Virus record (IMG/VR): IMGVR_UViG_3300038828_000071
Span: 58,536 to 78,535 of that record
DNA length: 20,000 nt
From: an uncultured virus (IMG/VR IMGVR_UViG_3300038828_000071)
Lineage: Duplodnaviria; Heunggongvirae; Uroviricota; Caudoviricetes
Strand: one strand, 5' to 3'
Part shown: positions 1 to 11,844 of the stretch, one piece after another
Position numbering within the stretch: the first letter of the stretch is position 1
Layout: every line of letters begins with the position of its first letter
The notes under the pieces: model-generated
Told to the model about the DNA's origin: nothing
Seen by the model: only the letters and a program-made list of their open reading frames with translations
Databases searched by the model: none
Translations under genes and position numbers: made by a program

Positions 1-62
1 GGTATTAAAGATTCGTATTTCATATTAAAATTATTTTTAAGTTAAAGTCTCGTGTTTCAAAG

Positions 63-96
63 TCGGCAACGAACGCCAACCGCCAAACCGTTAACA
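63..96 (+). repeat. Right half of an attC-like site, left arm presumably outside the window
   Basis: 63-82 TCGGCAACGAACGCCAACCG is identical to 9893-9912 (right arm of site 10) and is followed by GTT at 90-92. Confidence 0.75.
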
Positions 97-130
97 GATA
101 TGGTATGAAGTAGATACAGCATACCATATC
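97..130 (-). terminator. Perfect 11-bp hairpin, possible terminator
   Basis: GATATGGTATG (97-107) / CATACCATATC (120-130), 12-nt loop, 6 nt past the stop of ORF 137..508. No clear U-tract. Confidence 0.4.
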
Positions 131-1305: not shown

Positions 1306-3009
1306 TTATATTGCTATTGATATTTTAATTAAACTTTCAGCATTAGCTTCTACTAACTTTTTTGCTACTAATGGAACAACTGAATTTCCTATTTGTTTTT
1401 TTTGTTCTGTTTGATTTCCTTTAAGTATATAATCTTTTGAAAAGCCTTGAATTTCTTTCAGTTCTTTTATTAATAACATTCTCATTTTGATATCAATAAT
1501 ACCATAAATAGCCATAAACTCCTTAATCTTTATGGTCATTTCAGAATCATCCTCAAACACTGCAATTGCAATTCTTCCTTGTTCTGCTTCAACAAGATAT
1601 GGAGGTCTTTTATCCATTCTTGCAATCAAAGTGAATGCAGGACGTTCTATGCTTCCACCAGCAGACTTATATTGCGGATTAAGAAGATAGTGCTGTTTTC
1701 TTGATGCTAAAATAGTGCCGTGTGGTTCATCTATCGATTTACCAACGTTACTAAATTGCGTGTCCATTACCCAATGCTCAGCCGTTACAAAATTATGTTT
1801 TGGCGTTGTTGTAACTGTCCCTGCTGGATAATCTATTGAAGTACTGTCAGAATTAGAATAACTCATCATTAAATAAGAGATTTTTGATATTCGATCCTTT
1901 GTTGTTAATGTTTGAGCAGGTAATTCAACTTCTCTATTTGTGCCATTTCCGTAATAAGACGACAGAAAATGTGACTGAACGAATGCATGATGATCTGATG
2001 TGGTTATAGTTCCAGCGGGAAGTTCTATATCTGAAACCTTTCCTTCAGGTCTGCCGGAATAGTATTTTTTTATAAATGCAGCTTTCACAATTCCAATACG
2101 TCCTTGTGTGCTAATAGTTGGGCATGGTTCATCAACTCCTGGTGGATTATGATGTCCTGATTGATTTATTGAATTGTACTTTAAAATCCATTTGTCCTTT
2201 CCACCTGCAACAAACTTTACTAATCCGGCATGTATTCTCTTTAATGTCGCATCTGAAAGTGGAATTTTTCTATCAAATATANNNNNNNNNNTGCCTTCTA
2301 TGTCAAAGTCTAAAACTTCTTTTACTGCTTTCCATGGTTTTTTATTATATTCAAAAAGATTTCCCATTTCTTTTTGTTTTTTTCTCGGATCATAGTGAGT
2401 TGTTTCTGGAAATGCTATTGGAAGACCGTGTTTTGCAAATATTCCGAAGTATCTATCTCTGGATGTGTATGCGCCAAAGTCGGCTGCATTTAGCATTTTC
2501 CAATTGTAATTATATCCCATGTGCTGCACAGTACGCACCCAATACATATAGTCGCATCCTTTATGCATATCTACTGGACGTCCGTTATTATCTAATTTTC
2601 CCCAAGACATAAACTCTCTGACATTTTCAATATATAAGTAGTCCGGGTTCAAATGCTCCAGGTACATCATTAAATCCCAAGCCAATGTGCGACTATCTCC
2701 GTCACGTGGTAAGCCGCCTTTTGCTTTACTGTAATTTGTACATTCAAGAGAAGCCCAAATATTGATGTAGCAATCCGGTTCTGCGAGTTTTAATTTATCA
2801 ACCAAAACCTTTAAATGTTCAACTACTTTAAAATCACGAATATCTTCCGTAAAATGTAAAGTTTTTGGATGATTTGCTTTGTGTGATGCTATTGCTTTTG
2901 CATCGTGATTAACACAAGCTACAACATCTAATCCTGCCAAATGGATTCCGGTAGAAGTTCCACCAGCTCCGGCAAACAAATCTATCCAGTAAATTTTTGG
3001 AGTTTCCAT
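1306..3009 (-). CDS. C5 cytosine DNA methyltransferase (Dcm-like, phage type)
   Basis: Motif I DLFAGAGG, catalytic motif IV variant SLECTNYS, motif VI ENV, motif VIII SRDR, motif X GNSV. The ORF spans an N-gap. Confidence 0.93.
   Translation of the reverse strand: METPKIYWIDLFAGAGGTSTGIHLAGLDVVACVNHDAKAIASHKANHPKTLHFTEDIRDFKVVEHLKVLVDKLKLAEPDCYINIWASLECTNYSKAKGGLPRDGDSRTLAWDLMMYLEHLNPDYLYIENVREFMSWGKLDNNGRPVDMHKGCDYMYWVRTVQHMGYNYNWKMLNAADFGAYTSRDRYFGIFAKHGLPIAFPETTHYDPRKKQKEMGNLFEYNKKPWKAVKEVLDFDIEGXXXXIFDRKIPLSDATLKRIHAGLVKFVAGGKDKWILKYNSINQSGHHNPPGVDEPCPTISTQGRIGIVKAAFIKKYYSGRPEGKVSDIELPAGTITTSDHHAFVQSHFLSSYYGNGTNREVELPAQTLTTKDRISKISYLMMSYSNSDSTSIDYPAGTVTTTPKHNFVTAEHWVMDTQFSNVGKSIDEPHGTILASRKQHYLLNPQYKSAGGSIERPAFTLIARMDKRPPYLVEAEQGRIAIAVFEDDSEMTIKIKEFMAIYGIIDIKMRMLLIKELKEIQGFSKDYILKGNQTEQKKQIGNSVVPLVAKKLVEANAESLIKISIAI
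2282..2291. other. Assembly gap (10 N)
   Basis: Run of N inside the methyltransferase gene. Confidence 1.
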
Positions 3010-4715: not shown

Positions 4716-5546
4716 TTAATTATTATTTGTAATTTGATTAATGTACATAAACATATCAGAATACTTTGTTTTAAGATATTCTTCATTACCTGTTCTTGTC
4801 TTTAATAACATCCAGTTCTCGCAAAATTTATCAATGCCTTCTATTTGTCCATGTTTTTTGATATACTCATACATTGCTAAATTTATATAATCATCTTCAT
4901 TTACTGCAGCATCTAATATTTTGGTAGCCATTACATGACCAATTCCTTGTATTCCGGTTATGTTATCAGTAACATCACCAACAAGTAATTGATATGCCAA
5001 ATTACGCTTTGCTTTATTTTGATCTACTAAATGATAATCTCCATTTTTAAAATTATAATGAAGCCCGGGAATTTGTTGCAAATCTTTATCATCAGAAATA
5101 ATAAAAGTATTTTTATTGCAAACCATGGATATCAAATCATCGGCTTCAATATCATCATATTTGAAAACAATTCCATATTTTCTGAATGCGTTAGGTATAG
5201 CTGCTAAATCTTGCATCTTACCATCATACATATAAGGATCAACTTTATCAGTTCTATTGCCTTTATATTTTTTAGTAAATCCAATTTTATCTCTGAAAGT
5301 ATTTTCAGATTTACCGGAAAAGAAAAATACTAAATATTTAAATTTAATAGAATTATTTATTTCGTTTATGATGCTATCAAGAGCTTCATCTACGGTTAAT
5401 TGTTCACCAGTATCTTGTATGTTCTTATAGATACGATAAGTAATTATGTATTTATACTTATCGGCATCAATAAGAGCTACCATATCAGAAGTATTATATA
5501 CTTCTTGTGAGTTTGATGATGTTGGTTTAAATGGTTTAATTTCCAT
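4716..5546 (-). CDS. 5'-3' exonuclease / flap endonuclease (T7 gp6 / T4 RNase H-like)
   Basis: LIDAD, YKGNR, EADD, DKDL and H3TH motif GDVTDNITGIQGIG. Confidence 0.9.
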   Translation of the reverse strand: MEIKPFKPTSSNSQEVYNTSDMVALIDADKYKYIITYRIYKNIQDTGEQLTVDEALDSIINEINNSIKFKYLVFFFSGKSENTFRDKIGFTKKYKGNRTDKVDPYMYDGKMQDLAAIPNAFRKYGIVFKYDDIEADDLISMVCNKNTFIISDDKDLQQIPGLHYNFKNGDYHLVDQNKAKRNLAYQLLVGDVTDNITGIQGIGHVMATKILDAAVNEDDYINLAMYEYIKKHGQIEGIDKFCENWMLLKTRTGNEEYLKTKYSDMFMYINQITNNN

Positions 5547-5578
5547 AATTATTAATGTTTATTATTTATTATTTAACT

Positions 5579-5614
5579 TATAAACGAACCTGTACTTCGT
5601 TTACAGAGATGTTA
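5579..5614 (+). repeat. Array-heading site copy 1 (candidate attI-like site)
   Basis: 35/36 identical to 8100-8135; internal hairpin TAAACGAA/TTCGTTTA; ends in the GTT that begins cassette A. Confidence 0.7.
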
Positions 5615-5623
5615 TGTGCCATT

Positions 5624-5863
5624 TTAAGAGCCGACACTGAAAATGATACGCCTTACAACTCCATCTGAATTTATTTTATCAGATTGTGCCATCACAATGC
5701 GTTCAGTATATCCTTGCTTGCTTTCATTCCATACCCATTTCTGTCTGTTGCCATCATAGTCATACAATATTCCTTCTATTTCACAAATTTTAGTACAATC
5801 ATCTATTTTTGTACTCATTTGCATAACGTCACCACCAGCGACATAAAATTCGGTTTTTATCAT
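5624..5863 (-). CDS. Cassette A hypothetical protein (MIKTEF..., 79 aa)
   Basis: ATG at 5863 preferred over GTG at 5905. Bounded by GTTATGTGCC (5611-5620) / GGCACATAAC (5891-5900). Confidence 0.7.
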   Translation of the reverse strand: MIKTEFYVAGGDVMQMSTKIDDCTKICEIEGILYDYDGNRQKWVWNESKQGYTERIVMAQSDKINSDGVVRRIIFSVGS

Positions 5864-5893
5864 TTCAATTAAGATTTGTGAAGAAAAAACGGC

Positions 5894-6024
5894 ACATAAC
5901 AGCACCTAACCAAAATTGGCGGTTTAGTGGTTATATCAACGTTTCTGCTTCGGTTTAACATTATTTTATATTCAAGTTTTGTGCTTCGTAATCGCCAACT
6001 TCGGTTAGCTGCAAAACGTTAGCG
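5894..6024 (+). repeat. attC-like site 1 (131 bp)
   Basis: ACATAAC...GTTAGCG; arms CTAACCAAAATTGGCG (5906-5921) / CGCCAACTTCGGTTAG (5993-6008). Confidence 0.85.
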
Positions 6025-6048
6025 GTAATGTAAAAGATACCGCCTAAA

Positions 6049-6456
6049 CTATTCGTATTTAATAAATAATTCATTTACTTTTTCTTCTAATTCGTTTAAA
6101 AAAGTAGTGTTTAGAATTTGTTTTAATCTATCTTTTTCAAATTTTTCATTACCATTCCAAAAAGAAATTGAAACGCTTTCTTTTGAGTTTATATAACTGA
6201 TTTTATCAAACCAAAAATTAAACTGAACATTTTTTTTAGGAAATTTTAAATGATAAGATAGATTGAAGTTGTTATCTATTTGTCTCCAAAATTCATAGTT
6301 AACAATTTTAATTCCGTCATTATAGCTTTCACTTGCATTTGGAAATTTAGACATAAACTCTCTAAATCTATTTTCAGTAAGCAATACACTACCGCTAACA
6401 CTCGTTTGCACGCATTGCGGTTTTTGTGGTTCAATGATATTTTTATTTCGCATCAT
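6049..6456 (-). CDS. Cassette B hypothetical protein (135 aa), starts inside site 2
   Basis: Cassette ends GTTAGCGGTA (6018-6027) / TACCGCTAAC (6390-6399). Confidence 0.7.
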   Translation of the reverse strand: MMRNKNIIEPQKPQCVQTSVSGSVLLTENRFREFMSKFPNASESYNDGIKIVNYEFWRQIDNNFNLSYHLKFPKKNVQFNFWFDKISYINSKESVSISFWNGNEKFEKDRLKQILNTTFLNELEEKVNELFIKYE

Positions 6457-6525
6457 ATTTATTTTTAAGTTGAAAATTTGTCGTTACGAACTCCGCAACG
6501 ACGAGCAAGCGAGATAACGTTACCT
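6393..6525 (+). repeat. attC-like site 2 (133 bp)
   Basis: Arms CTCGTTTGCACGCATTGCGG (6401-6420) / CCGCAACGACGAGCAAGCGAG (6493-6513); GTT at 6519. Confidence 0.8.
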
Positions 6526-6531
6526 GCAAGG

Positions 6532-6747
6532 CTACTCATCCGTTTCAAAATCACATTCCAATTCATCTAACAAAATGGGGTGAATACTATTTGCTTCAAA
6601 TCCACTTTCATTTGCAGCATCATAAACCATCATTTCCCAATCCTCGACCAGTTTGTTAATCTTACGTTTGAAATTTTTAAACTGCTCTTCCGTAATAGGT
6701 TTGTCAGTTTCAAAGTCAAAATTTAGTGTTCCTGTAATTGTTGCCAT
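6532..6747 (-). CDS. Cassette C acidic hypothetical protein (71 aa)
   Basis: Cassette ends GTTACCTGC (6519-6527) / GCAGGTAAC (6792-6800). Confidence 0.75.
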   Translation of the reverse strand: MATITGTLNFDFETDKPITEEQFKNFKRKINKLVEDWEMMVYDAANESGFEANSIHPILLDELECDFETDE

Positions 6748-6793
6748 TTTATTGTTGTTTAAAAATTAAGTTCCTACTGATAAACCGCCCAGC

Positions 6794-6887
6794 AGGTAAC
6801 AGCGGTTTGGCAAAAGCTGCCAGAAAGTTTTGTGCGAAAATTCAAGTTCCCGTTAGGCAGCCTTCGCCAAGCCGCAAAACGTTAGGG
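6794..6887 (+). repeat. attC-like site 3 (94 bp)
   Basis: Arms GCGGTTTGGCAAAAGCTGCC (6802-6821) / GGCAGCCTTCGCCAAGCCGC (6856-6875). Confidence 0.88.
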
Positions 6888-6892
6888 TGCAT

Positions 6893-7165
6893 TTAAGACA
6901 CCCCAACCAATTCGCAACTTTTGAAAAATTCGTCCATTTCAGACTTATTCTCAAACTTTACTTTTAAACCTTCGACAATTCCTTCTTCGGTTCTGGGTTT
7001 TACGATTGTTAGCCAATGCCCGTCAGAACAATGACAAGTATCAATTCCGCAACCGCCATTGTCTTGGCTCATTACAATTTTCCCTTTTGTTTCAACTGCT
7101 CCAGCTTCATTTTCAAAAGTTCCGTCAGGTTTTACACCTTCCCATTTAAAAGACTCTATTTTCAT
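6893..7165 (-). CDS. Cassette D hypothetical protein (90 aa, CxxxxCHC motif)
   Basis: Cassette ends GTTAGGGTGC (6881-6890) / GCACCCTAAC (7184-7193). Confidence 0.75.
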   Translation of the reverse strand: MKIESFKWEGVKPDGTFENEAGAVETKGKIVMSQDNGGCGIDTCHCSDGHWLTIVKPRTEEGIVEGLKVKFENKSEMDEFFKSCELVGVS

Positions 7166-7186
7166 TTTGATTTAAATAAAAACGCA

Positions 7187-7316
7187 CCCTAACAAAGTAT
7201 AACCAAAAGCGGGGCGACATTCGCAAATTGGTAATTTGTGCTGCTAATTAACTTTGTACCGAAGGATAAGGCAGCAGCACTTAATCCCCGCCTTCGGTTA
7301 TACTCGACCGTTATGT
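7187..7316 (+). repeat. attC-like site 4 (130 bp)
   Basis: Arms AGTATAACCAAAAGCGGGG (7196-7214) / CCCCGCCTTCGGTTATACT (7286-7304). Confidence 0.88.
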
Positions 7317-7568
7317 GGCATTATAACAAATCAACCGAACTGCTTTCCAAAATCCGTGTTGTTTAATTAAATTATCCACATAGTGTCTATCTGGCGAGTG
7401 TCCTTCACTTCCGTATATATTATACAAATAAGATGGATAGCACTTTGAACGAAAAGAATAACGCCACATAACACGCAATATAAGTAACCAATGGTGTAGT
7501 GGTTTATTCAAGTTCTGTTTTTCAATTTTACGTTTCATATAATTTGATATTAAGTTTTTCAAAATCAT
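7311..7568 (-). CDS. Cassette E hypothetical protein (start 7568 or 7538, both inside site 5)
   Basis: Cassette ends GTTATGTGGC (7310-7319) / GCCACATAAC (7463-7472); the stop codon is the TAA of the core. Confidence 0.55.
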   Translation of the reverse strand: MILKNLISNYMKRKIEKQNLNKPLHHWLLILRVMWRYSFRSKCYPSYLYNIYGSEGHSPDRHYVDNLIKQHGFWKAVRLICYNAT

Positions 7569-7596
7569 TGGCTACTCATATTGCCATCCGTTATAT
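7466..7596 (+). repeat. attC-like site 5 (131 bp)
   Basis: Arms GCAATATAAGTAACCAATG (7475-7493) / CATTGGCTACTCATATTGC (7566-7584). Confidence 0.88.
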
Positions 7597-7602
7597 GCCA
7601 GT

Positions 7603-8061
7603 TTAAGAAACGTACTGCGAACATATTGCAATTACTTTTTGACATTGTTCTACATCAAACATTCCTATATGACATAAATCACGTTCAATGTTCATCTGTT
7701 TACTTAGCCATAAATAAGCCTTATTCCTATTTCCTAAATTAGGTATAAACTCTTTCCAAATCTTATTTATCAATCCTGTTTTAGCTATTTGGTCAAAGTA
7801 ATAATGAGCCTGTTTCTTTGCGTCCCTAAGTTCTTTATTTGCTAATCTCCCTAAGGCATTATCAGTTCCTTTATGTACACCAACGTAAGCATCACATGGC
7901 TTACAAATATAAATCATACCATAACTTTTACCATAAACAAATGAACTATCTATATACTCGGTTTTTGAGCCACAATAAGGGCAAATAAAACCGGCATATA
8001 ACACACGGTCATCAGCAATATTTGCCGTGCTTTGTGGATTATTTTCTGCTAATTTTGTCAT
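7603..8061 (-). CDS. Cassette F zinc-finger protein, DUF3268-like
   Basis: CPYCG...CKPCDAYVGVH...LGRLA...AH...AYLWL...HIGMFD pattern. Cassette ends GTTATATGCC (7590-7599) / GGCATATAAC (7993-8002). Confidence 0.8.
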   Translation of the reverse strand: MTKLAENNPQSTANIADDRVLYAGFICPYCGSKTEYIDSSFVYGKSYGMIYICKPCDAYVGVHKGTDNALGRLANKELRDAKKQAHYYFDQIAKTGLINKIWKEFIPNLGNRNKAYLWLSKQMNIERDLCHIGMFDVEQCQKVIAICSQYVS

Positions 8062-8099
8062 TTGTTTTTCAATTAATATTATTATTTAATTATTTCGAG

Positions 8100-8135
8100 T
8101 ATAAACGAACCTGTACTTCGTTTACAGGGATGTTA
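8100..8135 (+). repeat. Array-heading site copy 2, in place of the right arm of site 6
   Basis: Near-identical to 5579-5614; not complementary to the left arm at about 8003-8030. Confidence 0.7.
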
Positions 8136-8151
8136 GCGGAGATTGTTCTAA

Positions 8152-8355
8152 TCACGTTTCAAAAGACGAAATAAAATTGTAAATTTCTTCAACTTTATCA
8201 ATATCAATCTCGTTTTTAAATTCATAATTAAAAACTACTTTTTTATTACTTGATTTAATTTCTTTTGTAAATAAGTTTAAAGATAAACATCCTTTAATAT
8301 ACCAATTTCCTGCTTTATGATAACCAAGATTTTGTAATTTTTCAAATAATAACAT
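8152..8355 (-). CDS. Cassette G second gene, hypothetical (67 aa)
   Basis: ATG ORF overlapping the upstream gene by 14 nt. Confidence 0.65.
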   Translation of the reverse strand: MLLFEKLQNLGYHKAGNWYIKGCLSLNLFTKEIKSSNKKVVFNYEFKNEIDIDKVEEIYNFISSFET

Positions 8356-8521
8356 TTTTCTGTTTTTTATTAATTAAACTTTGCGCAGCTCTTTTTGTTT
8401 TAGTAGTGGAGTTTGAACCTTTCCACAACCACATTGCATAATCAAAATCATTGTCAACTATCCAACTTATCAATTTGCCTTTATATTTTCCAAATTGTGC
8501 TTTTTGTTCTTCTGATTTCAT
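8342..8521 (-). CDS. Cassette G first gene, small FGKYKG-motif protein (DUF3820 / exonuclease X C-terminal-like)
   Basis: FGKYKGKLISWI...DYAMWL; ATG at 8521. Cassette ends GTTAGCGGAG (8132-8141) / CTCCGCTAAC (8550-8559). Confidence 0.7.
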   Translation of the reverse strand: MKSEEQKAQFGKYKGKLISWIVDNDFDYAMWLWKGSNSTTKTKRAAQSLINKKQKNVII

Positions 8522-8552
8522 AAAAAATTCCTTATTAACGACCCACAACCTC

Positions 8553-8685
8553 CGCTAACAGCAGTTACACAAGATTTGGGTTTTAGGTTTTCTGTATTCA
8601 TTGTTTTGTACTTTTAAATATTAGTGATTAATCGAAGATTTAGGCTTACTTTTCCCAAACCTCGTGTAGCTGCGAACCGTTAGCC
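8553..8685 (+). repeat. attC-like site 7 (133 bp)
   Basis: Arms GCAGTTACACAAGATTTGGG (8561-8580) / CCCAAACCTCGTGTAGCTGC (8654-8673). Confidence 0.88.
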
Positions 8686-8691
8686 GCAAGC

Positions 8692-9039
8692 CTAAGAAAC
8701 AACCTGCAACAAATCAGCATTCTCAAAAATATTTCCGACAACTTTGTTTAAGTTACCCAGACTATTCGCAAGCGACACAATACGAGTTTCATCATCAAAA
8801 TAGCGACAATACCAAGCGGCTTCATCTTCATTCCAGTAAACAATTTGCAATGCCTTTGTGTCGCAATTTTCAATTATATCTCCTTCGTAAACTTCCGTTC
8901 CGTTTATCTGTGCATCTTCCCTGCCAGTAAATTGCATTACTTCTATTTCAGGATGTTCGTTGTCGTATGGCAAAATTGACCTGTAAACCATTTTTGACAA
9001 TGCCTTGTCGTAAAATCTGAATTTAATTTGTCTGTTCAT
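8692..9039 (-). CDS. Cassette H YopX family protein
   Basis: IKFRFYD...MQFTG...EVYEGDI...VVGNIFEN signature. Cassette ends GTTAGCCGC (8679-8687) / GCGGCTAAC (9066-9074). Confidence 0.9.
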   Translation of the reverse strand: MNRQIKFRFYDKALSKMVYRSILPYDNEHPEIEVMQFTGREDAQINGTEVYEGDIIENCDTKALQIVYWNEDEAAWYCRYFDDETRIVSLANSLGNLNKVVGNIFENADLLQVVS

Positions 9040-9067
9040 TTTTATTGTTGTTGTGAGAAAGGCCAGC

Positions 9068-9163
9068 GGCTAACAGCGGTTTTGCAATAGCCGCCTGACA
9101 GTTCTCGGTTAATAATTAAGTTCATTCTTTGGCGGCCATCGCAAAGCCGCCCAAACGTTAGCG
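9068..9163 (+). repeat. attC-like site 8 (96 bp)
   Basis: Arms GCGGTTTTGCAATAGCCGCC (9076-9095) / GGCGGCCATCGCAAAGCCGC (9131-9150). Confidence 0.88.
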
Positions 9164-9169
9164 GCAACC

Positions 9170-9520
9170 CTAAGAGTGCCACTCGGTAACATCGAACTCC
9201 GATGGAAGTAACCCAAGTTGTTTGCCATTTTCTAAAATAGCAGAAACAGCACCGTAGGAATTAACCCATACATAATACTCACCATCTTTTAAGGCTATGG
9301 TATCTTTTTCAATTCCTAAAATTGGTGCAAATTCCATTAAATCAGGTGTAACAGTTTTAGCCAATTTTACTTTTAAAGGAACTCTACCCCGAAAATTTGC
9401 AGGATATGCAGATCTGCCTTTTCTATCCGATTGCCATTTTAAAGCGGGAGAAGTAAGGGCAGCCGCTAACATCTGCTCATACGTAAGCGGGTTTTTAGTG
9501 GTAATTTCAAGTGTGTTCAT
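9170..9520 (-). CDS. Cassette I hypothetical protein (ATG at 9520 inside site 9)
   Basis: Cassette ends GTTAGCGGC (9157-9165) / GCCGCTAAC (9462-9470). Confidence 0.7.
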   Translation of the reverse strand: MNTLEITTKNPLTYEQMLAAALTSPALKWQSDRKGRSAYPANFRGRVPLKVKLAKTVTPDLMEFAPILGIEKDTIALKDGEYYVWVNSYGAVSAILENGKQLGLLPSEFDVTEWHS

Positions 9521-9595
9521 ATAATTTAAGTTATTAAAGTTTGACAAATTTGTATTTCAAAATCCCCGCCTACGCATAGCAGACGGGCGTTATGC
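9464..9595 (+). repeat. attC-like site 9 (132 bp)
   Basis: Arms TCTGCTCATACGTAAGCGGG (9472-9491) / CCCGCCTACGCATAGCAGA (9565-9583); one extra C in the left arm. Confidence 0.85.
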
Positions 9596-9850
9596 TCCAT
9601 GCCCTCCGACCCTCGTGTTCCAACTTTCAATACAAGTTTTAGCACACCATTCAGCATCGTGCCTTAATGTTGCATCTGTCCTTTCAACCCTACAATGCGA
9701 GCCAGTGCATTTAATTGTAACTTTTCTGCTTTTAGTAGATTTATTTCCTATAAATGTTATCTTAGGCTCGCATCCGCAAAATGGGCACGGGAGCATAACA
9801 TCGGCTAAAAAAACATTGCCGTTATTGTCGCTATATTCAACTTTCTGCAT
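9590..9850 (-). CDS. Cassette J Lar-like (restriction alleviation) zinc-ribbon protein
   Basis: LPCPFCG...C....C...WNTR pattern. Cassette ends GTTATGCTCC (9589-9598) / GGAGCATAAC (9790-9799). Confidence 0.75.
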   Translation of the reverse strand: MQKVEYSDNNGNVFLADVMLPCPFCGCEPKITFIGNKSTKSRKVTIKCTGSHCRVERTDATLRHDAEWCAKTCIESWNTRVGGHGA

Positions 9851-9924
9851 CTTATTTAATTTTAGTTGTTAATGAAAATTTATCTTTATAAATCGGCAAC
9901 GAACGCCAACCGTCAACGTTAGCG
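9793..9924 (+). repeat. attC-like site 10 (132 bp, degenerate pairing)
   Basis: CGG...CATTGCCG pairs partly with CGGCAACG...CCG; correct length and cores. Confidence 0.65.
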
Positions 9925-10128
9925 ACAATTCTTAGCAACTGTAAGAACCCACTTTAGTTGTTCATCATCCAACCATCTGGGATATACTTGTCCAGCCTTT
10001 GTTTCTTTATAACTTTTATTGTATTCAGCGAAAAGTGCATCAATGAATTTTACATCATCAAAAGAACTGTCGCTAACAGCACCTATACCCAATTGGGCAG
10101 TTTCGTTGTTTTTTGAAGTTTCTTCCAT
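9919..10128 (-). CDS. Cassette K hypothetical protein (69 aa)
   Basis: Cassette ends GTTAGCGACA (9918-9927) / TGTCGCTAAC (10068-10077), 15/16 when extended; stop lies in the core. Confidence 0.7.
   Translation of the reverse strand: MEETSKNNETAQLGIGAVSDSSFDDVKFIDALFAEYNKSYKETKAGQVYPRWLDDEQLKWVLTVAKNCR
10071..10105 (+). repeat. Left half of attC-like site 11, right arm missing
   Basis: CGCTAACAGCACCTATACCCAATTGGGCAG resembles the site 1 left arm (TAACAGCACCTAACC); no complementary arm before the GTT at 10288. Confidence 0.6.
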
Positions 10129-10149
10129 TTTATTAAGTTTATTTGTTAT

Positions 10150-10251
10150 TCAATGAATTGAATCTATTACCTCGCCATATACTGAATGAGGCAATCCATA
10201 AATCCAACCATCTGTACCCGCTATTTTTGCTCTAAATTTTATTTGTTTCAT
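10150..10251 (-). pseudogene. Truncated YopX-like N-terminal fragment (33 aa)
   Basis: My translation: MKQIKFRAKIAGTDGWIYGLPHSVYGEVIDSIH*, with the IKFRA...WIYG YopX start. Not in the ORF track. Confidence 0.65.
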
Positions 10252-10307
10252 TTGTTTTGTTTTAAGTTGTTATTCGTTTATGTGTATGTTATGTGCAATA
10301 AATTTTA

Positions 10308-10532
10308 CTACCCTATTGCATAACCAGAATTTTCTTGTTCCGAAACTTCCTTTGGTTTATTAATACCTACACAAGCCAATATCTTTTCAGCAGCATCCCT
10401 ACTTTGCCAAAAATCAGGATGTGCAATTACCCTAATTTCATCATCCTCATAAATAGCACTTATCTGTTCAATTATCTTAATAATTTGCATACGCTTGTGT
10501 ATGTATTTTTTTGTTTTTGTTTTTGTGTCCAT
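10308..10532 (-). CDS. Hypothetical protein (74 aa)
   Basis: ATG ORF following the last GTT core at 10288. Confidence 0.65.
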   Translation of the reverse strand: MDTKTKTKKYIHKRMQIIKIIEQISAIYEDDEIRVIAHPDFWQSRDAAEKILACVGINKPKEVSEQENSGYAIG

Positions 10533-10537
10533 TATTT

Positions 10538-10741
10538 CTATTTATTTAAAATTATACGATTCACTGTACGCGTTTTAAAATGAATTAAATCTTGTTCATA
10601 CTCTCTTTTCATTCTTTCAATTTCCATTTTTTCAATAGGTGGTAAAATGAAATCAGAATTAGATTTAAATATCTTTACATCTTCCCATTTTTTATTGGGT
10701 GCTTTCGATTGAAATACAACTTGGTGAATATATTTATTCAT
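10538..10741 (-). CDS. Hypothetical protein (67 aa)
   Basis: TAATG coupling to the clamp gene. Confidence 0.7.
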   Translation of the reverse strand: MNKYIHQVVFQSKAPNKKWEDVKIFKSNSDFILPPIEKMEIERMKREYEQDLIHFKTRTVNRIILNK

Positions 10742-11844
10742 TATAGTAAAGGCATTAATAATGTAAAATTTTCTGAATCATCAGAATTAATAATAATTGC
10801 ACGATTACCATCGGTGATATTTATATTTACAATTTTAGAATCAATTGCTTTTATACAATTCAAAAATAATTCATGACTAAATGTTTTAGAAATGGCATCA
10901 CCATTAAAAAGTATAAACGGACAATTTACTATTGCACTTTTTGCAAAATCAATATCTAAGCATGAAATATTTAATTCATTATAAATTTTTTCAAATAATA
11001 CTTTTTTAGTATTTGGTAATGCCCATTTAATTCGATTTAATGAATTTATTAATTCATCTTTTTGTACCTTAATAACAGAAACAAACTCTTTAGGAATAAC
11101 AGATTCATAATTTGGAAATTTACCATTTATAAGCCTTGAATAAATTACTGATTTATTTATCTCAAATTTTAAAGTTTGATTATTAAATGACATAATCAAA
11201 TTATCTACTCCTGGTTCTATCAAATTAGTAATTGCAGGAATAGAAGATTTGGGCAATAGCACATTAAATTCTTTTTCTAAATCTAATTTAATTTTTGATA
11301 AAATTAAAACATGTCCATTAGTAGCCACAAATTTTAAATCCTTTTCTTTCGATTCTAAATAAACACCCATCATAGAAGCTCTTAATGGATCATTACCGGT
11401 AAACTTTTCTGATGATAAAAGAATATCAGAAAGAGTTTTTGCATCAATAACAGTTTGATTTTGAAAATCATCATTATTTAATCTTGGAAATAAATTCTCT
11501 GTCATAGTAGCTATTTCAAATGTACCTTTTGAATGCTTAAATACTATTACAAGATTATTCATGAAAACAGATATTTCTTCATTTTTCAATGTTGATAATC
11601 CTTTTTCCAATAATTCATAATTGATTAAAAAGGAAGCTGATTCTTCAGAATCAATATCTTTTGCAACATCGATATTTAATATGATATCAGTTTCTAAATC
11701 AGTTCTCCTAACTGACAAATCGTTTCCTTTTAAATCAAAATGAACACCATTTAGATAATCTAAAGTTGCGCTTAATTTAATTTTATTCGTTTTTTTAATT
11801 GCTTTTAAAAGCGACTCTGAATTTACTTTAAATAAATTTTTCAT
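10741..11844 (-). CDS. dnaN: DNA polymerase III beta sliding clamp
   Basis: 367 aa; RTDLE, VATNGHVL, SRLINGKFPNYESVIP and C-terminal LLMPL. Confidence 0.92.
   Translation of the reverse strand: MKNLFKVNSESLLKAIKKTNKIKLSATLDYLNGVHFDLKGNDLSVRRTDLETDIILNIDVAKDIDSEESASFLINYELLEKGLSTLKNEEISVFMNNLVIVFKHSKGTFEIATMTENLFPRLNNDDFQNQTVIDAKTLSDILLSSEKFTGNDPLRASMMGVYLESKEKDLKFVATNGHVLILSKIKLDLEKEFNVLLPKSSIPAITNLIEPGVDNLIMSFNNQTLKFEINKSVIYSRLINGKFPNYESVIPKEFVSVIKVQKDELINSLNRIKWALPNTKKVLFEKIYNELNISCLDIDFAKSAIVNCPFILFNGDAISKTFSHELFLNCIKAIDSKIVNINITDGNRAIIINSDDSENFTLLMPLL

What the first reader, a model, noticed from the sequence alone, without database searches (positions are those of the whole stretch)
5611..10296. 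Integron-like cassette array embedded in a phage replication region, with no integrase in view
Seen: 11 consecutive units of 280-547 bp, each starting GTT+6-7 nt and ending with the exact reverse complement of its own start. A GTTATGTGCC/GGCACATAAC; B GTTAGCGGTA/TACCGCTAAC; C GTTACCTGC/GCAGGTAAC; D GTTAGGGTGC/GCACCCTAAC; E GTTATGTGGC/GCCACATAAC; F GTTATATGCC/GGCATATAAC; G GTTAGCGGAG/CTCCGCTAAC; H GTTAGCCGC/GCGGCTAAC; I GTTAGCGGC/GCCGCTAAC; J GTTATGCTCC/GGAGCATAAC; K GTTAGCGACA/TGTCGCTAAC. The two cores flanking any single hairpin match each other only partly (the GTTA/TAAC core). Known: this is the footprint of integron cassettes, where R'' and R' of a circular cassette's attC are split by crossover at G/TT. 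Inference: the phage acquires and shuffles accessory genes as circular cassettes through a tyrosine recombinase encoded elsewhere in its genome or borrowed from the host, which would be a phage-borne cassette system.
Basis: partly seen in the sequence, partly recalled or inferred. Interest (0 to 1): 0.95.

Follow-up and report, generated by a model that had tools for sequence, protein, structure and literature searches.

The report
Integron-like gene cassette array in phage
A crAss-like phage carries eleven small accessory genes, each packaged as a movable cassette with its own folded recombination site, and these belong to a widespread integron-like system of Flavobacteria and their phages that does not seem to have been described.

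Summary
Observation confirmed. There are 11 tiled units (window 5611-10077). Each is bounded by an exact 9-10-nt inverted repeat GTTAnnnnn...nnnnnTAAC, and the units are separated by 80-130-nt imperfect hairpins. The genome is a 78.5-kb crAss-like phage with no tyrosine recombinase.

A covariance model built from the window's nine hairpins finds hundreds of similar sites. They occur in other viral contigs, in cultured Flavobacterium phages, and in 44 of 121 sampled genomes of a Flavobacterium's family. Three patterns hold across these:
- A unit's start is complementary to its own end in 70 of 96 neighbouring site pairs, against 5% by chance.
- One hairpin type carries different genes.
- Cassettes G and I sit between different neighbours elsewhere, with similarity breaking at the GTT cores.

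In other phages the arrays always end on one side, at a conserved junction next to a ~277-aa Xer/IntI-like recombinase. That recombinase lacks the integron-integrase insertion.

It differs from classical integrons in three ways:
- The recombinase is of another type.
- The site has a one-sided bulge.
- In phages the site lies upstream of its gene and often supplies its start codon.

Phage CALINs are in print (Qi 2023). My searches found no description of this platform.

The parts
1..99 (-). Further attC-like hairpin, cut by the window's left edge. It belongs to a mini-array (genome 58339-58628) with one more unit of core GTTATGTGC.
   Evidence: Covariance-model hit at window 1-99 (-), 38.9 bits, cut off. 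Genome-wide scans give hairpin 58502-58628 and unit 58339-58505.
5570..5610 (-). Left border motif (ATAAACGAACCTGTACTTCGTTTACAGAGAT on +). It lies between the end of cassette A and the promoter region and start of the 5'-3' exonuclease gene, in the position an attI would hold.
   Evidence: Sequence. Near-identical copy at 8101-8131 and a related copy at 10272-10289. It does not share the TATATGTA junction motif of the recombinase-bearing phages.
5611..6017 (-). Cassette A: unit 5611-5900 (core GTTATGTGCC) plus hairpin 5901-6017. ORF 5624-5863, no family.
   Evidence: 125.3 bits
6018..6518 (-). Cassette B: unit 6018-6399 (GTTAGCGGTA) plus hairpin 6400-6518. ORF 6049-6456 starts inside the hairpin loop. 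The hairpin is 90% identical to intergenic DNA of Flavobacterium psychrophilum phages.
6519..6880 (-). Cassette C: unit 6519-6800 (GTTACCTGC) plus short hairpin 6801-6880. ORF 6532-6747. This hairpin type is found by an exact 24-mer in 23 viral and 9 genome contigs.
6881..7309 (-). Cassette D: unit 6881-7193 (GTTAGGGTGC) plus hairpin 7194-7309. ORF 6893-7165.
   Evidence: z -5.0
7310..7589 (-). Cassette E: unit 7310-7472 (GTTATGTGGC) plus hairpin 7473-7589. The ORF ends at 7311 and starts inside the hairpin (ATG at 7568 or the later in-frame ATG).
7590..8131 (-). Cassette F: unit 7590-8002 (GTTATATGCC) with ORF 7603-8061 (DUF3268 zinc-finger protein). The spacer 8003-8131 is a hybrid: the 3' half of a hairpin encoding the first 20 residues, then an AT-rich stretch, then a copy of the border motif.
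   Evidence: Homologues in related phages L005 and L007 match from residue 21 on.
8132..8678 (-). Cassette G: unit 8132-8559 (GTTAGCGGAG) plus hairpin 8560-8678. ORFs 8152-8355 and 8342-8548.
   Evidence: A 704-nt contig of another study matches 8132-8682 only and has other DNA on both sides.
8679..9156 (-). Cassette H: unit 8679-9074 (GTTAGCCGC) plus short hairpin 9075-9156. ORF 8692-9039, YopX family.
9157..9588 (-). Cassette I: unit 9157-9470 (GTTAGCGGC) plus hairpin 9471-9588. ORF 9170-9520 starts inside the hairpin.
   Evidence: Relatives in 7 viral contigs, with different neighbouring cores wherever those could be read.
9589..9917 (-). Cassette J: unit 9589-9799 (GTTATGCTCC) plus hairpin 9800-9917. 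ORF 9590-9850, Lar-like restriction alleviation protein.
9918..10206 (-). Cassette K: unit 9918-10077 (GTTAGCGACA) plus a degenerate site 10068-10206. ORF 9919-10128 starts beyond the unit.
   Evidence: 24 bits, E 0.0046; z -0.53
10160..10298 (-). Right border: a 30-codon ORF (10252-10160) that looks like the N-terminus of a YopX protein, a third copy of the border motif (10272-10289), and GTTATGTGC (10290-10298), the same core as cassette A.
   Evidence: Sequence and alignment. The YopX likeness is by eye only.

Best explanation
Window 5611-10206 is an array of eleven gene cassettes of an integron-like site-specific recombination system shared by Flavobacteriales bacteria and their phages.

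**Anatomy of a cassette.** Read on the coding (-) strand, each cassette is a structured site followed by its gene. The site runs TAAC|G, a 3-6-nt one-sided bulge, a long imperfect stem with two conserved G.T pairs, a loop, then T-GTTA. After it come a variable core nnnnn, the gene, and the complement of that core ending in TAA(C).

**Origin of the hybrid sites.** The cores of neighbouring cassettes differ. Every hairpin in the array is therefore a hybrid whose two flanks pair only through TAAC/GTTA. This is the footprint of strand exchange at that core between sites of different cassettes.

**Complete elements.** In other phages the array ends at a conserved junction (TAAC|TAyTATATrTA) 49-133 nt upstream of a ~265-281-aa Xer/IntI-like tyrosine recombinase gene. 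I take this to be the cassette recombinase, acting as IntI does on folded attC and attI.

**This phage.** It has no such gene, so its array is an orphan (CALIN-like). It was built, and can be changed, only when a recombinase is supplied in trans by a co-infecting phage, a prophage or the host, or it is inherited and reshuffled by ordinary recombination.

**Phage versus bacterial orientation.** In phage cassettes the site lies upstream of the gene. In the long (~117-130 nt) form the site carries the start codon and the first ~20 codons, and I presume a promoter as well, so each cassette brings its own expression signals. In bacterial arrays of the same site family the genes point the other way, as in classical integrons.

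**Shown:** the anatomy, the covariation, the own-end complementarity, modular reuse, breakpoints at the cores, and the polar link to the recombinase.

**Inferred:** catalysis by that recombinase, a folded single-strand substrate, circular intermediates, a promoter in the loop, and an anti-defence role for the cargo.
For: **Anatomy**
- 11 of 11 units have exact 9-10-nt own-end complementarity.
- TAACG and TGTTA are invariant.
- 11 of 17 predicted pairs show compensatory changes among the 9 window sites.

**Family**
- Model R1 was built from the window's 9 sites only.
- It finds 120 sites in the 31 loci fetched by hairpin similarity (29 IMG/VR contigs from two hairpin 24/25-mer scans plus two GenBank phage hits; 173,630 bases).
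- It finds 124 sites in 80 recombinase loci.
- It finds sites in 44 of 121 sampled genomes of the family of a Flavobacterium sp. chromosome.
- On 140 sites outside the window, 95.3% of cells pair, against 68.2% in shuffles (0 of 500 reach it) and 25-46% with slid partners. There are 560 double-sided changes against 160.

**Own-end rule elsewhere**
- The R' of one site is complementary to the R'' of the next at 5 or more of 6 variable positions in 70 of 96 neighbouring pairs.
- The same holds for 8 of 129 same-hairpin pairs and 243 of 5000 random pairs.

**Modularity and limits**
- In 25 copies of the CD-type hairpin, the hairpin and its 3' flank (GTTACCTGC or GTTATGTGC plus ~30 nt) are conserved while the 5' core varies.
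- In megaphage LR756502 the same site and core carry an unrelated gene between other neighbours.
- Cassette G: a 704-nt contig in run X3 (a different study) matches 8132-8682 only and has other DNA on both sides.
- Cassette I has relatives in 7 viral contigs. Nucleotide similarity spans the unit (about 9472-9155) in 5 of 7. The upstream cores take six forms across the 7 loci (L167 and L168 share one), none the window's. Four loci share one hairpin type behind three different upstream cores (L165, L167, L169); in the fourth (L166) the core reads TTGCCTAAC with the TAACG anchor aligned, not the one-base-shifted 10-mer printed.

**Recombinase**
- At least 522 viral stretches encode relatives.
- In the best 80 loci all 124 sites lie on the gene's strand and upstream of it: 209,520 bases upstream hold 124, and 307,830 bases downstream hold 0.
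- 44 of 58 loci with more than 1 kb upstream have a site.
- The conserved junction is found in 57 of 75 loci.
- All catalytic residues are present.
- In bacteria, a related recombinase lies within 13 kb of a site in 8 sampled genomes, in one fixed relative orientation in 8 of 8.

**Expression**
- The ORF is on the site's strand in 88 of 96 viral units, with 0 opposite.
- The ATG lies inside the upstream hairpin in 42 of 96 units, and in 37 of 65 units with long sites.
- The leader encoded in the BC-type hairpin precedes different cargo: C5 and N6 methylases.

**No recombinase here**
- PF00589 has 0 matches in the 78,535-bp genome, which is 99% complete by CheckV.
Against: - No recombination event, circle or excision variant was seen. 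Only contigs, not raw reads, could be laid, and the joints in the source sample have short sides of 20-24 nt that I do not trust.
- The recombinase could be cargo or a phage Xer used for another purpose. Its link to the arrays is positional only.
- It lacks the insertion that is reported essential for IntI to act on folded attC (passages of PMC8138268 and PMC9668308; abstract of PMC7790495).
- The sites lack the classical symmetric spacer and extrahelical bases.
- The one site of this class tested in print, P12002L_attC1, gave no recombinants with IntI1 (Qi 2023).
- Folding energies are modest. Five of 9 have z above -2, and one is +0.07.
- In all 9 hairpins the better-folding strand is the coding strand, which also fits an RNA-level role.
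- The alignment used for the covariation count was fitted to the model.
- The window's border motif does not match the junction motif of recombinase-bearing phages.
- The closest relative by exonuclease (L004, 63% identity) has no site in the 15 kb held.
- The viral loci were found with hairpin or recombinase queries, so they are not an unbiased sample.
Confidence: 0.8

Rival explanations
1. It is an ordinary CALIN. The sites are classical attC sites picked up from bacterial integrons and are recombined by a true integron integrase (with the IntI insertion) of the host. The Xer-like phage recombinase is unrelated to them.
For: - The R''/R' logic, the AAC/GTT cores and the crossover side are those of attC.
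- CALINs in virulent phages are in print, and one Polaribacter phage site, read on the non-coding strand, was recombined by IntI1 at G|TTAGGC (PMC9892861 section 3.4 and supplement).
- A Flavobacteriales MAG has an array in classical gene orientation with bacterial cargo.
Against: - TIGR02249 is over its cut-off in 0 of 121 sampled genomes of the host family, although 44 of them hold sites.
- The recombinases next to sites in bacteria (L057, L058) and in phages score 146-208 bits against a cut-off of 265, with the insertion unaligned.
- All 124 sites lie on one side of the phage recombinase.
- The site geometry differs from classical attC.
- IntegronFinder 2.0 reports only In0 and one Salinibacter integron for Bacteroidetes (passage of PMC9024848).
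Confidence: 0.08
2. The hairpins are expression modules: promoter, transcript-end or processing stem-loops, and leader. They act in RNA, and genes are swapped between phages by homologous or illegitimate recombination at these repeated modules, as proposed for the promoter-stem-loops of T4-like phages. No dedicated recombinase is involved.
For: - In phages the sites are on the coding strand in 88 of 96 units.
- The coding strand folds better in 9 of 9 hairpins because of G.T (G.U) pairs, and two such pairs are conserved in 137 and 138 of 140 sites.
- Start codons and leaders lie in the loops.
- Hairpin types are shared at about 90% identity between unrelated phages.
Against: - It does not explain why each unit's end is the exact complement of its own start while the two flanks of one hairpin differ.
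- It does not explain why similarity between copies breaks at TAAC/GTTA.
- It does not explain why the same sites occur in bacteria with the genes on the other strand (10 of 24 units).
- It does not explain why arrays abut a tyrosine recombinase on one side only.
Confidence: 0.07
3. The units are small transposon-like or single-strand mobile elements (MITE, IS200/IS605 or REP-like) with terminal inverted repeats, moved by a transposase that is not in view.
For: Each unit has 9-10-nt terminal inverted repeats and neighbouring hairpins. The elements are repeated at high depth in wastewater metagenomes.
Against: - Pfam found no transposase or HUH/Y1 domain in the phage's ORFs that were scanned.
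- The repeats differ between units apart from GTTA.
- The units tile head to tail at one locus rather than being scattered.
- The linked enzyme in complete elements is a tyrosine recombinase.
Confidence: 0.03
4. Assembly artefact or chimeric contig.
For: The contigs of the source sample break at the hairpins (table 8).
Against: - The same architecture is present in complete genomes of cultured phages (Flavobacterium phage 2A, KU599887; Polaribacter phage P12002L), in a complete Flavobacterium chromosome, and in dozens of independent assemblies.
- Run X1 covers all 30 bins of the array.
Confidence: 0.01

Closest known systems
Integrons (IntI integrase, attI, attC-bounded cassettes)
   Same: - Tandem single-gene cassettes.
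- Structured imperfect-palindrome sites conserved in shape rather than sequence, with AAC...GTT cores.
- Hybrid sites whose outer boxes match the cassette's own other end.
- In complete relatives, a tyrosine recombinase of the Xer/IntI group and a conserved junction at one end of the array.
   Different: - The recombinase is ~277 aa and lacks the IntI-specific insertion: TIGR02249 gives 146-208 bits against a cut-off of 265, with the insertion unaligned to VchIntIA 2a3v.
- The site has a one-sided 3-6-nt bulge and two conserved G.T pairs in place of a symmetric spacer and extrahelical bases.
- In phages the site is upstream of its gene, carries start codons, and there is no common Pc-type arrangement.
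- The window's phage has no recombinase at all.
CALINs in phage genomes (Qi et al. 2023, Front Microbiol, PMC9892861; read: abstract, section 3.4, passages, one supplementary file)
   Same: - Clusters of attC-type sites without an integrase in virulent phages.
- Methyltransferase cargo.
- Their Polaribacter phage P12002L sites are short members of this class: unit gp35 is bounded by GTTAGGCAC...GTGCCTAAC.
   Different: - They report 17 CALINs in 10,705 phage genomes. The figure legends I read give 3 attC sites (TJE1) and 2 predicted sites (P12002L); counts for the other CALINs were not seen.
- No Xer-like recombinase, junction site or inverted cassette orientation appears in the parts I read.
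- 'Flavobacter' occurs 0 times in the main text, and 'Flavobacterium' 0 times in the supplement held, although phage 2A has 5 model hits.
- The window holds 11 cassettes.
CTX-phi integration by XerCD on a folded single-strand hairpin (abstract of PMC3442271 seen in a search listing; mechanism otherwise recalled)
   Same: A Xer-type recombinase without the IntI insertion exchanging one strand pair on a hairpin folded from single-stranded DNA. This is a precedent for what I infer here.
   Different: It integrates a whole phage at dif. It involves no cassettes, arrays or variable cores.
pdif (Xer) modules of Acinetobacter plasmids (abstract of PMC7399989 seen in a search listing)
   Same: Single-gene modules bounded by inversely oriented Xer-type sites and thought to move between replicons.
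   Different: - Short 28-bp double-strand sites rather than 80-130-nt hairpins.
- No own-end variable cores.
- Host XerCD.
- Not in phages.
Promoter-early stem-loops (PeSL) of T4-like phages (recalled, no paper read)
   Same: Small accessory phage genes separated by promoter-plus-stem-loop repeats in a plastic region.
   Different: PeSLs are thought to act through homology. They lack cassette-specific inverted cores and have no linked recombinase.

Membership tests
Integron (strict sense) | attC sites: imperfect inverted repeats with conserved ...AAC and GTT... outer boxes, structure conserved more than sequence | tested here: met
   TAACG and TGTTA are invariant in 9 of 9 sites. 95.3% of cells pair, with 560 double-sided changes, over 140 sites.
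Integron (strict sense) | In arrays, the outer box after the crossover belongs to the next cassette, so a cassette's start is complementary to the R'' of its own site | tested here: met
   11 of 11 units in the window. 70 of 96 neighbouring pairs in other loci against 4.9% of random pairs.
Integron (strict sense) | Classical attC geometry: unpaired central spacer on both arms and 2-3 extrahelical bases that set strand choice (feature recalled) | tested here: not met
   The folds show a 3-6-nt bulge on one arm only, a 1-nt counterpart, and single mismatches. Conserved G.T pairs at two positions.
Integron (strict sense) | IntI: tyrosine recombinase with the IntI-specific additional domain near patch III | tested here: not met
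   No PF00589 match in the genome. Recombinases linked to such arrays score 146-208 bits on TIGR02249 (cut-off 265), with the insertion unmatched. 0 of 121 host-family genomes are over the cut-off.
Integron (strict sense) | attI site next to the integrase gene, at the end of the array where cassettes enter | tested here: inconclusive
   In relatives a conserved TAAC|TAyTATATrTA junction lies 49-133 nt before the recombinase in 57 of 75 loci. The window has a different border motif in three copies and no recombinase.
Integron (strict sense) | Cassette genes usually co-oriented with the attC top strand (site downstream of its gene) and read from a platform promoter | tested here: not met
   In viral loci 88 of 96 units are inverted (site upstream of gene), 0 are classical and 8 are ambiguous. 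In bacterial loci 10 of 24 are classical.
Integron (strict sense) | Integrase-dependent excision as circles and insertion at attI or attC | not testable with these tools
   Only contigs could be laid, and no trustworthy joints were seen.
CALIN (cluster of attC sites lacking an integrase) | Two or more attC sites in a row with no integron integrase nearby | tested here: met
   9 full sites plus 2 partial ones, and no tyrosine recombinase in the whole genome. This holds if the sites are accepted as attC-type.
CALIN (cluster of attC sites lacking an integrase) | Sites detected by the IntegronFinder/HattCI attC models | not testable with these tools
   Those models are not held here. Rfam gave no match.
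Xer-type simple tyrosine recombinases (for the linked enzyme, not in the window) | SAM-like N-terminal domain, catalytic domain with R-K-H-R-H-Y, about 270-300 aa, no arm-binding domain | tested here: met
   PF13495 plus PF00589. Invariant R, K, H, R, H, Y columns. Best families and structures are XerA-like.
T4-type promoter-stem-loop (PeSL) shuffling | Near-identical repeated promoter-stem-loops that recombine by homology | tested here: not met
   The window's hairpins share 59% mean column identity and differ in their arms. The own-end cores are unexplained by homology.
IS200/IS605, REP or MITE-like elements | A Y1/HUH transposase or dispersed single insertions | tested here: not met
   Pfam scans of the genome's ORFs found no such domain. 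The units are tandem at one locus.

The most novel reading that the evidence does not exclude
Phages of Flavobacteriales carry their own integron-type gene-capture platform. It would consist of three parts:
- a compact Xer-like recombinase that works on folded hairpin sites without the IntI insertion;
- a conserved entry junction;
- self-expressing cassettes, in which the site lies upstream and supplies promoter, start codon and leader.

Such a platform would let phages trade anti-restriction and other accessory genes. A mirror-image version with genes on the other strand would serve the bacterial hosts. The window's phage would be a recombinase-less client of this cassette pool. This would be a second, independent solution to single-strand cassette recombination and a phage-side counterpart of the bacterial integron.
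Probability: 0.55. Interest if true: 0.92.

Novelty: new variant of a known kind. Interest (0 to 1): 0.86.

Why it matters
Integrons are the textbook device by which bacteria collect and reshuffle genes. They are held to depend on one enzyme family whose special insertion lets it read folded single-stranded sites.

Here the same cassette logic appears with a plain Xer-like enzyme and a differently shaped site. The cassettes are turned round so that each brings its own start signals. The system occurs in at least hundreds of phage contigs and in a third of the sampled genomes of one bacterial family.

If the enzyme does what its position suggests, several things follow:
- It bears on how cassette recombination arose from Xer recombination.
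- It explains how virulent phages with no integrase come to hold tidy arrays of methylases, restriction-alleviation genes and unknown small genes.
- It opens a large pool of pre-delimited phage accessory genes for function screens.
- It shows that current integron finders probably miss a whole lineage of sites.

Tried and rejected
- **Rfam scan of the window.** It gave only one chance-level hit (WsnRNA46, E 0.97). Rfam gave no attC-type match.
- **Relatives through single proteins.** The clamp protein found nothing in IMG/VR. The clamp-helicase DNA found nothing in GenBank phages. The cassette G1 protein found nothing in IMG/VR.
- **My own hairpin scanners.** They were both insensitive and noisy, and I dropped them for the covariance model.
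- **The model with default filters.** It missed 3 of its own 9 training sites, so counts made with default filters are lower bounds.
- **Phage relatives found through the exonuclease (7 loci).** They held only two sites, in L005 and L007, and the closest one (L004) held none in 15 kb. The array is therefore not a conserved feature of this phage lineage.
- **P12002L.** It gave only weak model hits of 19-22 bits. Its membership rests on reading the sequence.
- **Genes next to the phage recombinase.** They are not conserved, so there is no partner protein.
- **Co-occurrence of sites and recombinase in bacterial genomes.** It is only modest: 29/15/34/43, odds ratio 2.45, p 0.024. Only 27 candidates per genome were scored for sites.
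- **Laying public runs.** All were contigs. Joints in the source sample, such as 5619 to 9893, have sides of 20-24 nt and do not fall on cores, so I give them no weight. Parts without cover in other runs say nothing.
- **Earlier findings of this scan.** None for this genome.
- **Promoter scan.** I did not run it because the tool does not cover Bacteroidota promoters. A promoter in the loops is an assumption.

Full report
**1. The observation**

The window is the last 20 kb of a 78,535-bp IMG/VR virus record, 29% G+C, rated 99% complete. Each of the 11 units (A 5611-5900 to K 9918-10077) begins with GTTA plus 5-6 letters and ends with their exact reverse complement. Complementarity runs 9-10 nt inward and stops 0-1 nt outward.

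Nine of the ten spacers are 80-119-nt imperfect hairpins. On the - strand they read TAAC-G, then a 3-6-nt bulge, a long stem, a loop, the return stem and T-GTTA. TAACG and TGTTA are invariant, and the rest is only 59% alike. Eleven of 17 consensus pairs show compensatory changes among the nine sites.

The observation has four weak points:
- Folding z-scores range from +0.07 to -5.0, and five of the nine are above -2.
- The F-G spacer is not a full hairpin.
- The stretch after K is a degenerate site (24 bits).
- The raw genome-wide count of GTT+6 inverted pairs is within the range of shuffles: 37 against a mean of 24.5 and a maximum of 41.

The tiling is the strong point. Of 16 GTTA+5 inverted pairs in the whole genome, 11 are the array. 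One more (genome 58339-58505) lies beside a further hairpin that the window's left edge cuts.

**2. Context**

All genes of the window are on the - strand. The array sits between a 5'-3' exonuclease (4716-5546) and a sliding clamp (10741-11844). Also in the window are dUTPase, a C5 methylase, an SF1 helicase, HU, DnaB and a DUF932 protein.

The rest of the genome has a crAss-type major capsid, ring and muzzle proteins, a 3841-aa protein, primase, RadC, a chaperonin and a Tad2-like protein. It is a crAss-like phage. No tyrosine recombinase is present, and Pfam showed no other recombinase or transposase in the ORFs scanned.

Cassette genes with a family are F (DUF3268 zinc finger), H (YopX) and J (Lar-like restriction alleviation). 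The others have none.

**3. The sites are a family, not a private feature**

blastn against GenBank phages matched only the hairpins:
- Hairpin B-C is 90% identical to intergenic DNA of five Flavobacterium psychrophilum phages.
- Hairpin C-D, with 35 nt of its flank, is 89% identical to a 642-kb uncultured phage.

Exact 24/25-mers from these two hairpins occur in 6 and 23 IMG/VR contigs of 5-310 kb. The C-D one also occurs in 9 genome contigs. Most of these are Flavobacteriales MAGs, and one is a complete Flavobacterium chromosome.

A covariance model built only from the window's nine sites found:
- 120 sites in the 31 loci fetched by hairpin similarity: 29 IMG/VR contigs and two GenBank phage hits;
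- 23 sites in the genome loci;
- sites in 44 of 121 sampled genomes of that Flavobacterium's family, with only 27 candidates scored per genome;
- 48 sites in one fragmented Flavobacterium MAG.

On 140 sites from outside the window, 95.3% of cells pair. Shuffles give 68.2% (0 of 500 reach the observed value), and slid partners give 25-46%. There are 560 double-sided changes against 160. Two G.T pairs are kept in 137 and 138 of 140 sites. That alignment is fitted to the model, which favours the structure. The slid controls share that bias and still fall far behind.

**4. The cassette rule holds elsewhere**

For neighbouring sites in 33 loci, the core after one hairpin is complementary to the core before the next at 5 or more of 6 variable positions:
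- in 70 of 96 neighbouring pairs;
- in 8 of 129 pairs formed by the two flanks of one hairpin;
- in 243 of 5000 random pairs.

Most failures are pairs more than 1 kb apart, where a site was probably missed.

**5. Where a cassette begins and ends**

Among 25 copies of the C-D hairpin type, two parts are conserved: the hairpin, and what follows it on the coding strand (GTTACCTGC or GTTATGTGC plus about 30 nt with a small covarying stem). The core before it varies freely. In the megaphage, the same hairpin and the same 18-nt unit end enclose an unrelated gene, with other sequence on both sides. Similarity stops at the GTT on either side.

A 704-nt contig of another study matches window 8132-8682 only, with 22 other letters and 4 gaps. 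It continues differently on both sides...TTCAAC before GTTAGCGGAG, and TGTGAG... after the next GTTA.

The protein of cassette I has relatives at 71-76% identity in 7 viral contigs. Nucleotide similarity spans about 9472-9155, that is unit I, in 5 of the 7. The cores upstream take six forms across the 7 loci (L167 and L168 share one), and none is the window's. The four downstream cores that could be read (L165, L168, L169, L170) take three forms, none the window's. Four of these loci share one hairpin type, which three of them (L165, L167, L169) show behind three different upstream cores; in L166 the anchor-aligned core is TTGCCTAAC, so I do not count the shifted 10-mer for it.

On the coding strand the site therefore lies upstream of its gene.

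**6. Expression signals in the site**

In viral loci the longest ORF of a unit is on the site's strand in 88 of 96 units, opposite in 0 and ambiguous in 8. Its ATG lies inside the upstream hairpin in 42 of 96 units: 37 of 65 with long sites and 5 of 31 with short sites. The stop codon lies within 30 nt of the closing TAAC in 69 of 96.

In the window, B, E, F, I, J and K start in the spacer. The roughly 22-residue leader encoded by the B-C hairpin type precedes C5 and N6 methylases and other proteins in other phages. A promoter in the loop is my assumption and was not tested.

**7. A recombinase at one end**

PF00589 occurs in 8 of 33 array-bearing records, and in 4 of the 11 that are at least 90% complete. 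Seven of these genes, in six of the loci I examined, are of one kind: 264-326 aa (six of them 264-281 aa and one, L044, 326 aa), all catalytic residues kept, and directly downstream of a site on the same strand.

This kind is large. There are 2,908 clusters at E 1e-30 or better, and at least 522 viral stretches encode relatives. In the best 80 loci all 124 sites lie on the gene's strand and upstream of it. The 307,830 bases downstream hold none. Of 58 loci with more than 1 kb upstream, 44 have a site.

Between the last cassette's variable core and the gene lies a conserved junction, TAAC|TAyTATATrTA, 49-133 nt before the gene, in 57 of 75 loci. This is the polarity of an integron platform.

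The enzyme is not an IntI by the defining test:
- Its best families are XerA-like, at 168-227 bits around a cut-off of 220.
- TIGR02249 gives 146-208 bits against a cut-off of 265.
- Against VchIntIA (2a3v) the insertion is left unaligned.

**8. The bacterial side**

A Flavobacteriales MAG contig starts with an array whose genes lie on the other strand relative to the sites, which is the classical integron orientation. Those genes include a chromate transporter, DoxX, an aminoglycoside adenylyltransferase-family protein and an ABC ATPase. In the genome loci, 10 of 24 units are classical and 13 are of the phage type. Some of these contigs are clearly phage or prophage (portal and capsid genes in L055).

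Recombinases 34-40% identical to the phage ones, with N-terminal extensions, lie next to sites in L057 and L058. No genome of 121 has a TIGR02249 match over the cut-off, and 63 have partial matches from ORFs of roughly 280-485 aa, most of them 370-410 aa. In 8 genomes such a gene lies within 13 kb of a site, always on the opposite strand and on the same side of it. Genome-level co-occurrence is modest (odds ratio 2.45, p 0.024).

**9. What this phage has**

It has eleven cassettes and no recombinase. The array is bordered on the exonuclease side by a 31-nt motif that recurs before cassette G and, more loosely, at 10272-10289 before GTTATGTGC, which is the core of cassette A. This motif sits where an attI would sit but does not resemble the junction of the recombinase-bearing phages. 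I cannot say whether it is a target site, a terminator before the next promoter, or both.

The F-G spacer joins half a hairpin to this motif. Exchange at the cores cannot produce that, so at least one other kind of rearrangement has occurred.

Orphan arrays are common: 7 of the 11 records that are at least 90% complete have none.

**10. What is in print**

- Qi et al. 2023 (PMC9892861; I read the abstract, section 3.4, passages and the one supplementary file held) report 17 CALINs among 10,705 phage genomes.
  - These include Polaribacter phage P12002L.
  - Its attC1 is a short site of the present class and gave no recombinants with IntI1.
  - Its attC2, read on the other strand, did.
- The IntegronFinder 2.0 paper (passages) reports only In0 and one Salinibacter integron for Bacteroidetes.
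- Ghaly et al. 2022 (passages) list Bacteroidota among phyla with integrons and restate the additional domain as defining.
- Six full-text searches found no description of the Xer-like platform, the junction, the inverted self-expressing cassettes or arrays in crAss-like phages.
- The library lacks most subscription journals, and I could not see other supplements, so this is not proof of absence.

**11. Verdict**

It is best filed as a new variant of the integron kind, of which this window holds a large orphan array. The decisive gap is biochemical: nobody has shown that the small recombinase cuts and joins these sites.

Noticed in passing
L051 1-6040 (Flavobacteriales MAG contig, genome handle G034): A bacterial array of the same site family in classical gene orientation. 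Its cargo includes a streptomycin-adenylyltransferase-family protein, a chromate transporter, DoxX and an ABC ATPase. It is a cassette array in a phylum where integron finders report almost none.
   Followed up: partly
A8 columns 11/238 and 35/222 (140 sites): Two G.T pairs are conserved in 137 and 138 of 140 sites and are almost never replaced by G-C or A-T. On the other strand they would be C.A mismatches. They could be the feature that sets strand choice.
   Followed up: no
window 6400-6518; L013 2983-4434, L017 2983-4089, L018 2980-3792, L015 2291-3043: One hairpin type encodes a ~22-residue leader (MMRNKNIIEPQKPQC... in the window). The leader is fused in frame to unrelated proteins, mostly DNA methylases. 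It is unclear how cargo comes to be joined in frame to a shared site.
   Followed up: partly
window 8003-8131: The F-G spacer is half a hairpin joined to a copy of the array's border motif and an AT-rich stretch. Exchange at the cores cannot make this. In related phages (L005, L007) the DUF3268 gene lacks the 20-residue leader.
   Followed up: partly
L012 4700-5200 (LR756502.1, 642-kb phage): A 70-nt segment starting GTTATGCGCC is repeated on both sides of the cassette with the C-type site. It has no hairpin of its own.
   Followed up: no
L015 (IMG/VR contig of 9,889 bp): Two Xer-like recombinase genes (326 and 277 aa) lie in one short array-bearing contig. The larger one is inside a three-gene unit between two sites.
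   Followed up: partly
genome 57585-57938 (L003 17585-17938, just left of the window): A Tad2-like (Thoeris anti-defence) gene lies close to the mini-array at the window's left edge.
   Followed up: no
window 1306-3009: A 567-aa C5 cytosine methylase gene that contains one of the four masked 10-N runs of the record (window about 2281-2291).
   Followed up: no
window 5400-10500 in runs X3, X4, X7: In wastewater, sludge and freshwater metagenomes of other studies the hairpins reach summed contig depths of hundreds, while most cargo genes are absent. The sites are abundant repeats in those communities.
   Followed up: partly
L001 12938-14590 and 2374-3201 (same phage genome): The phage encodes a Cpn60/GroEL-type chaperonin and a pentapeptide-repeat protein.
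   Followed up: no
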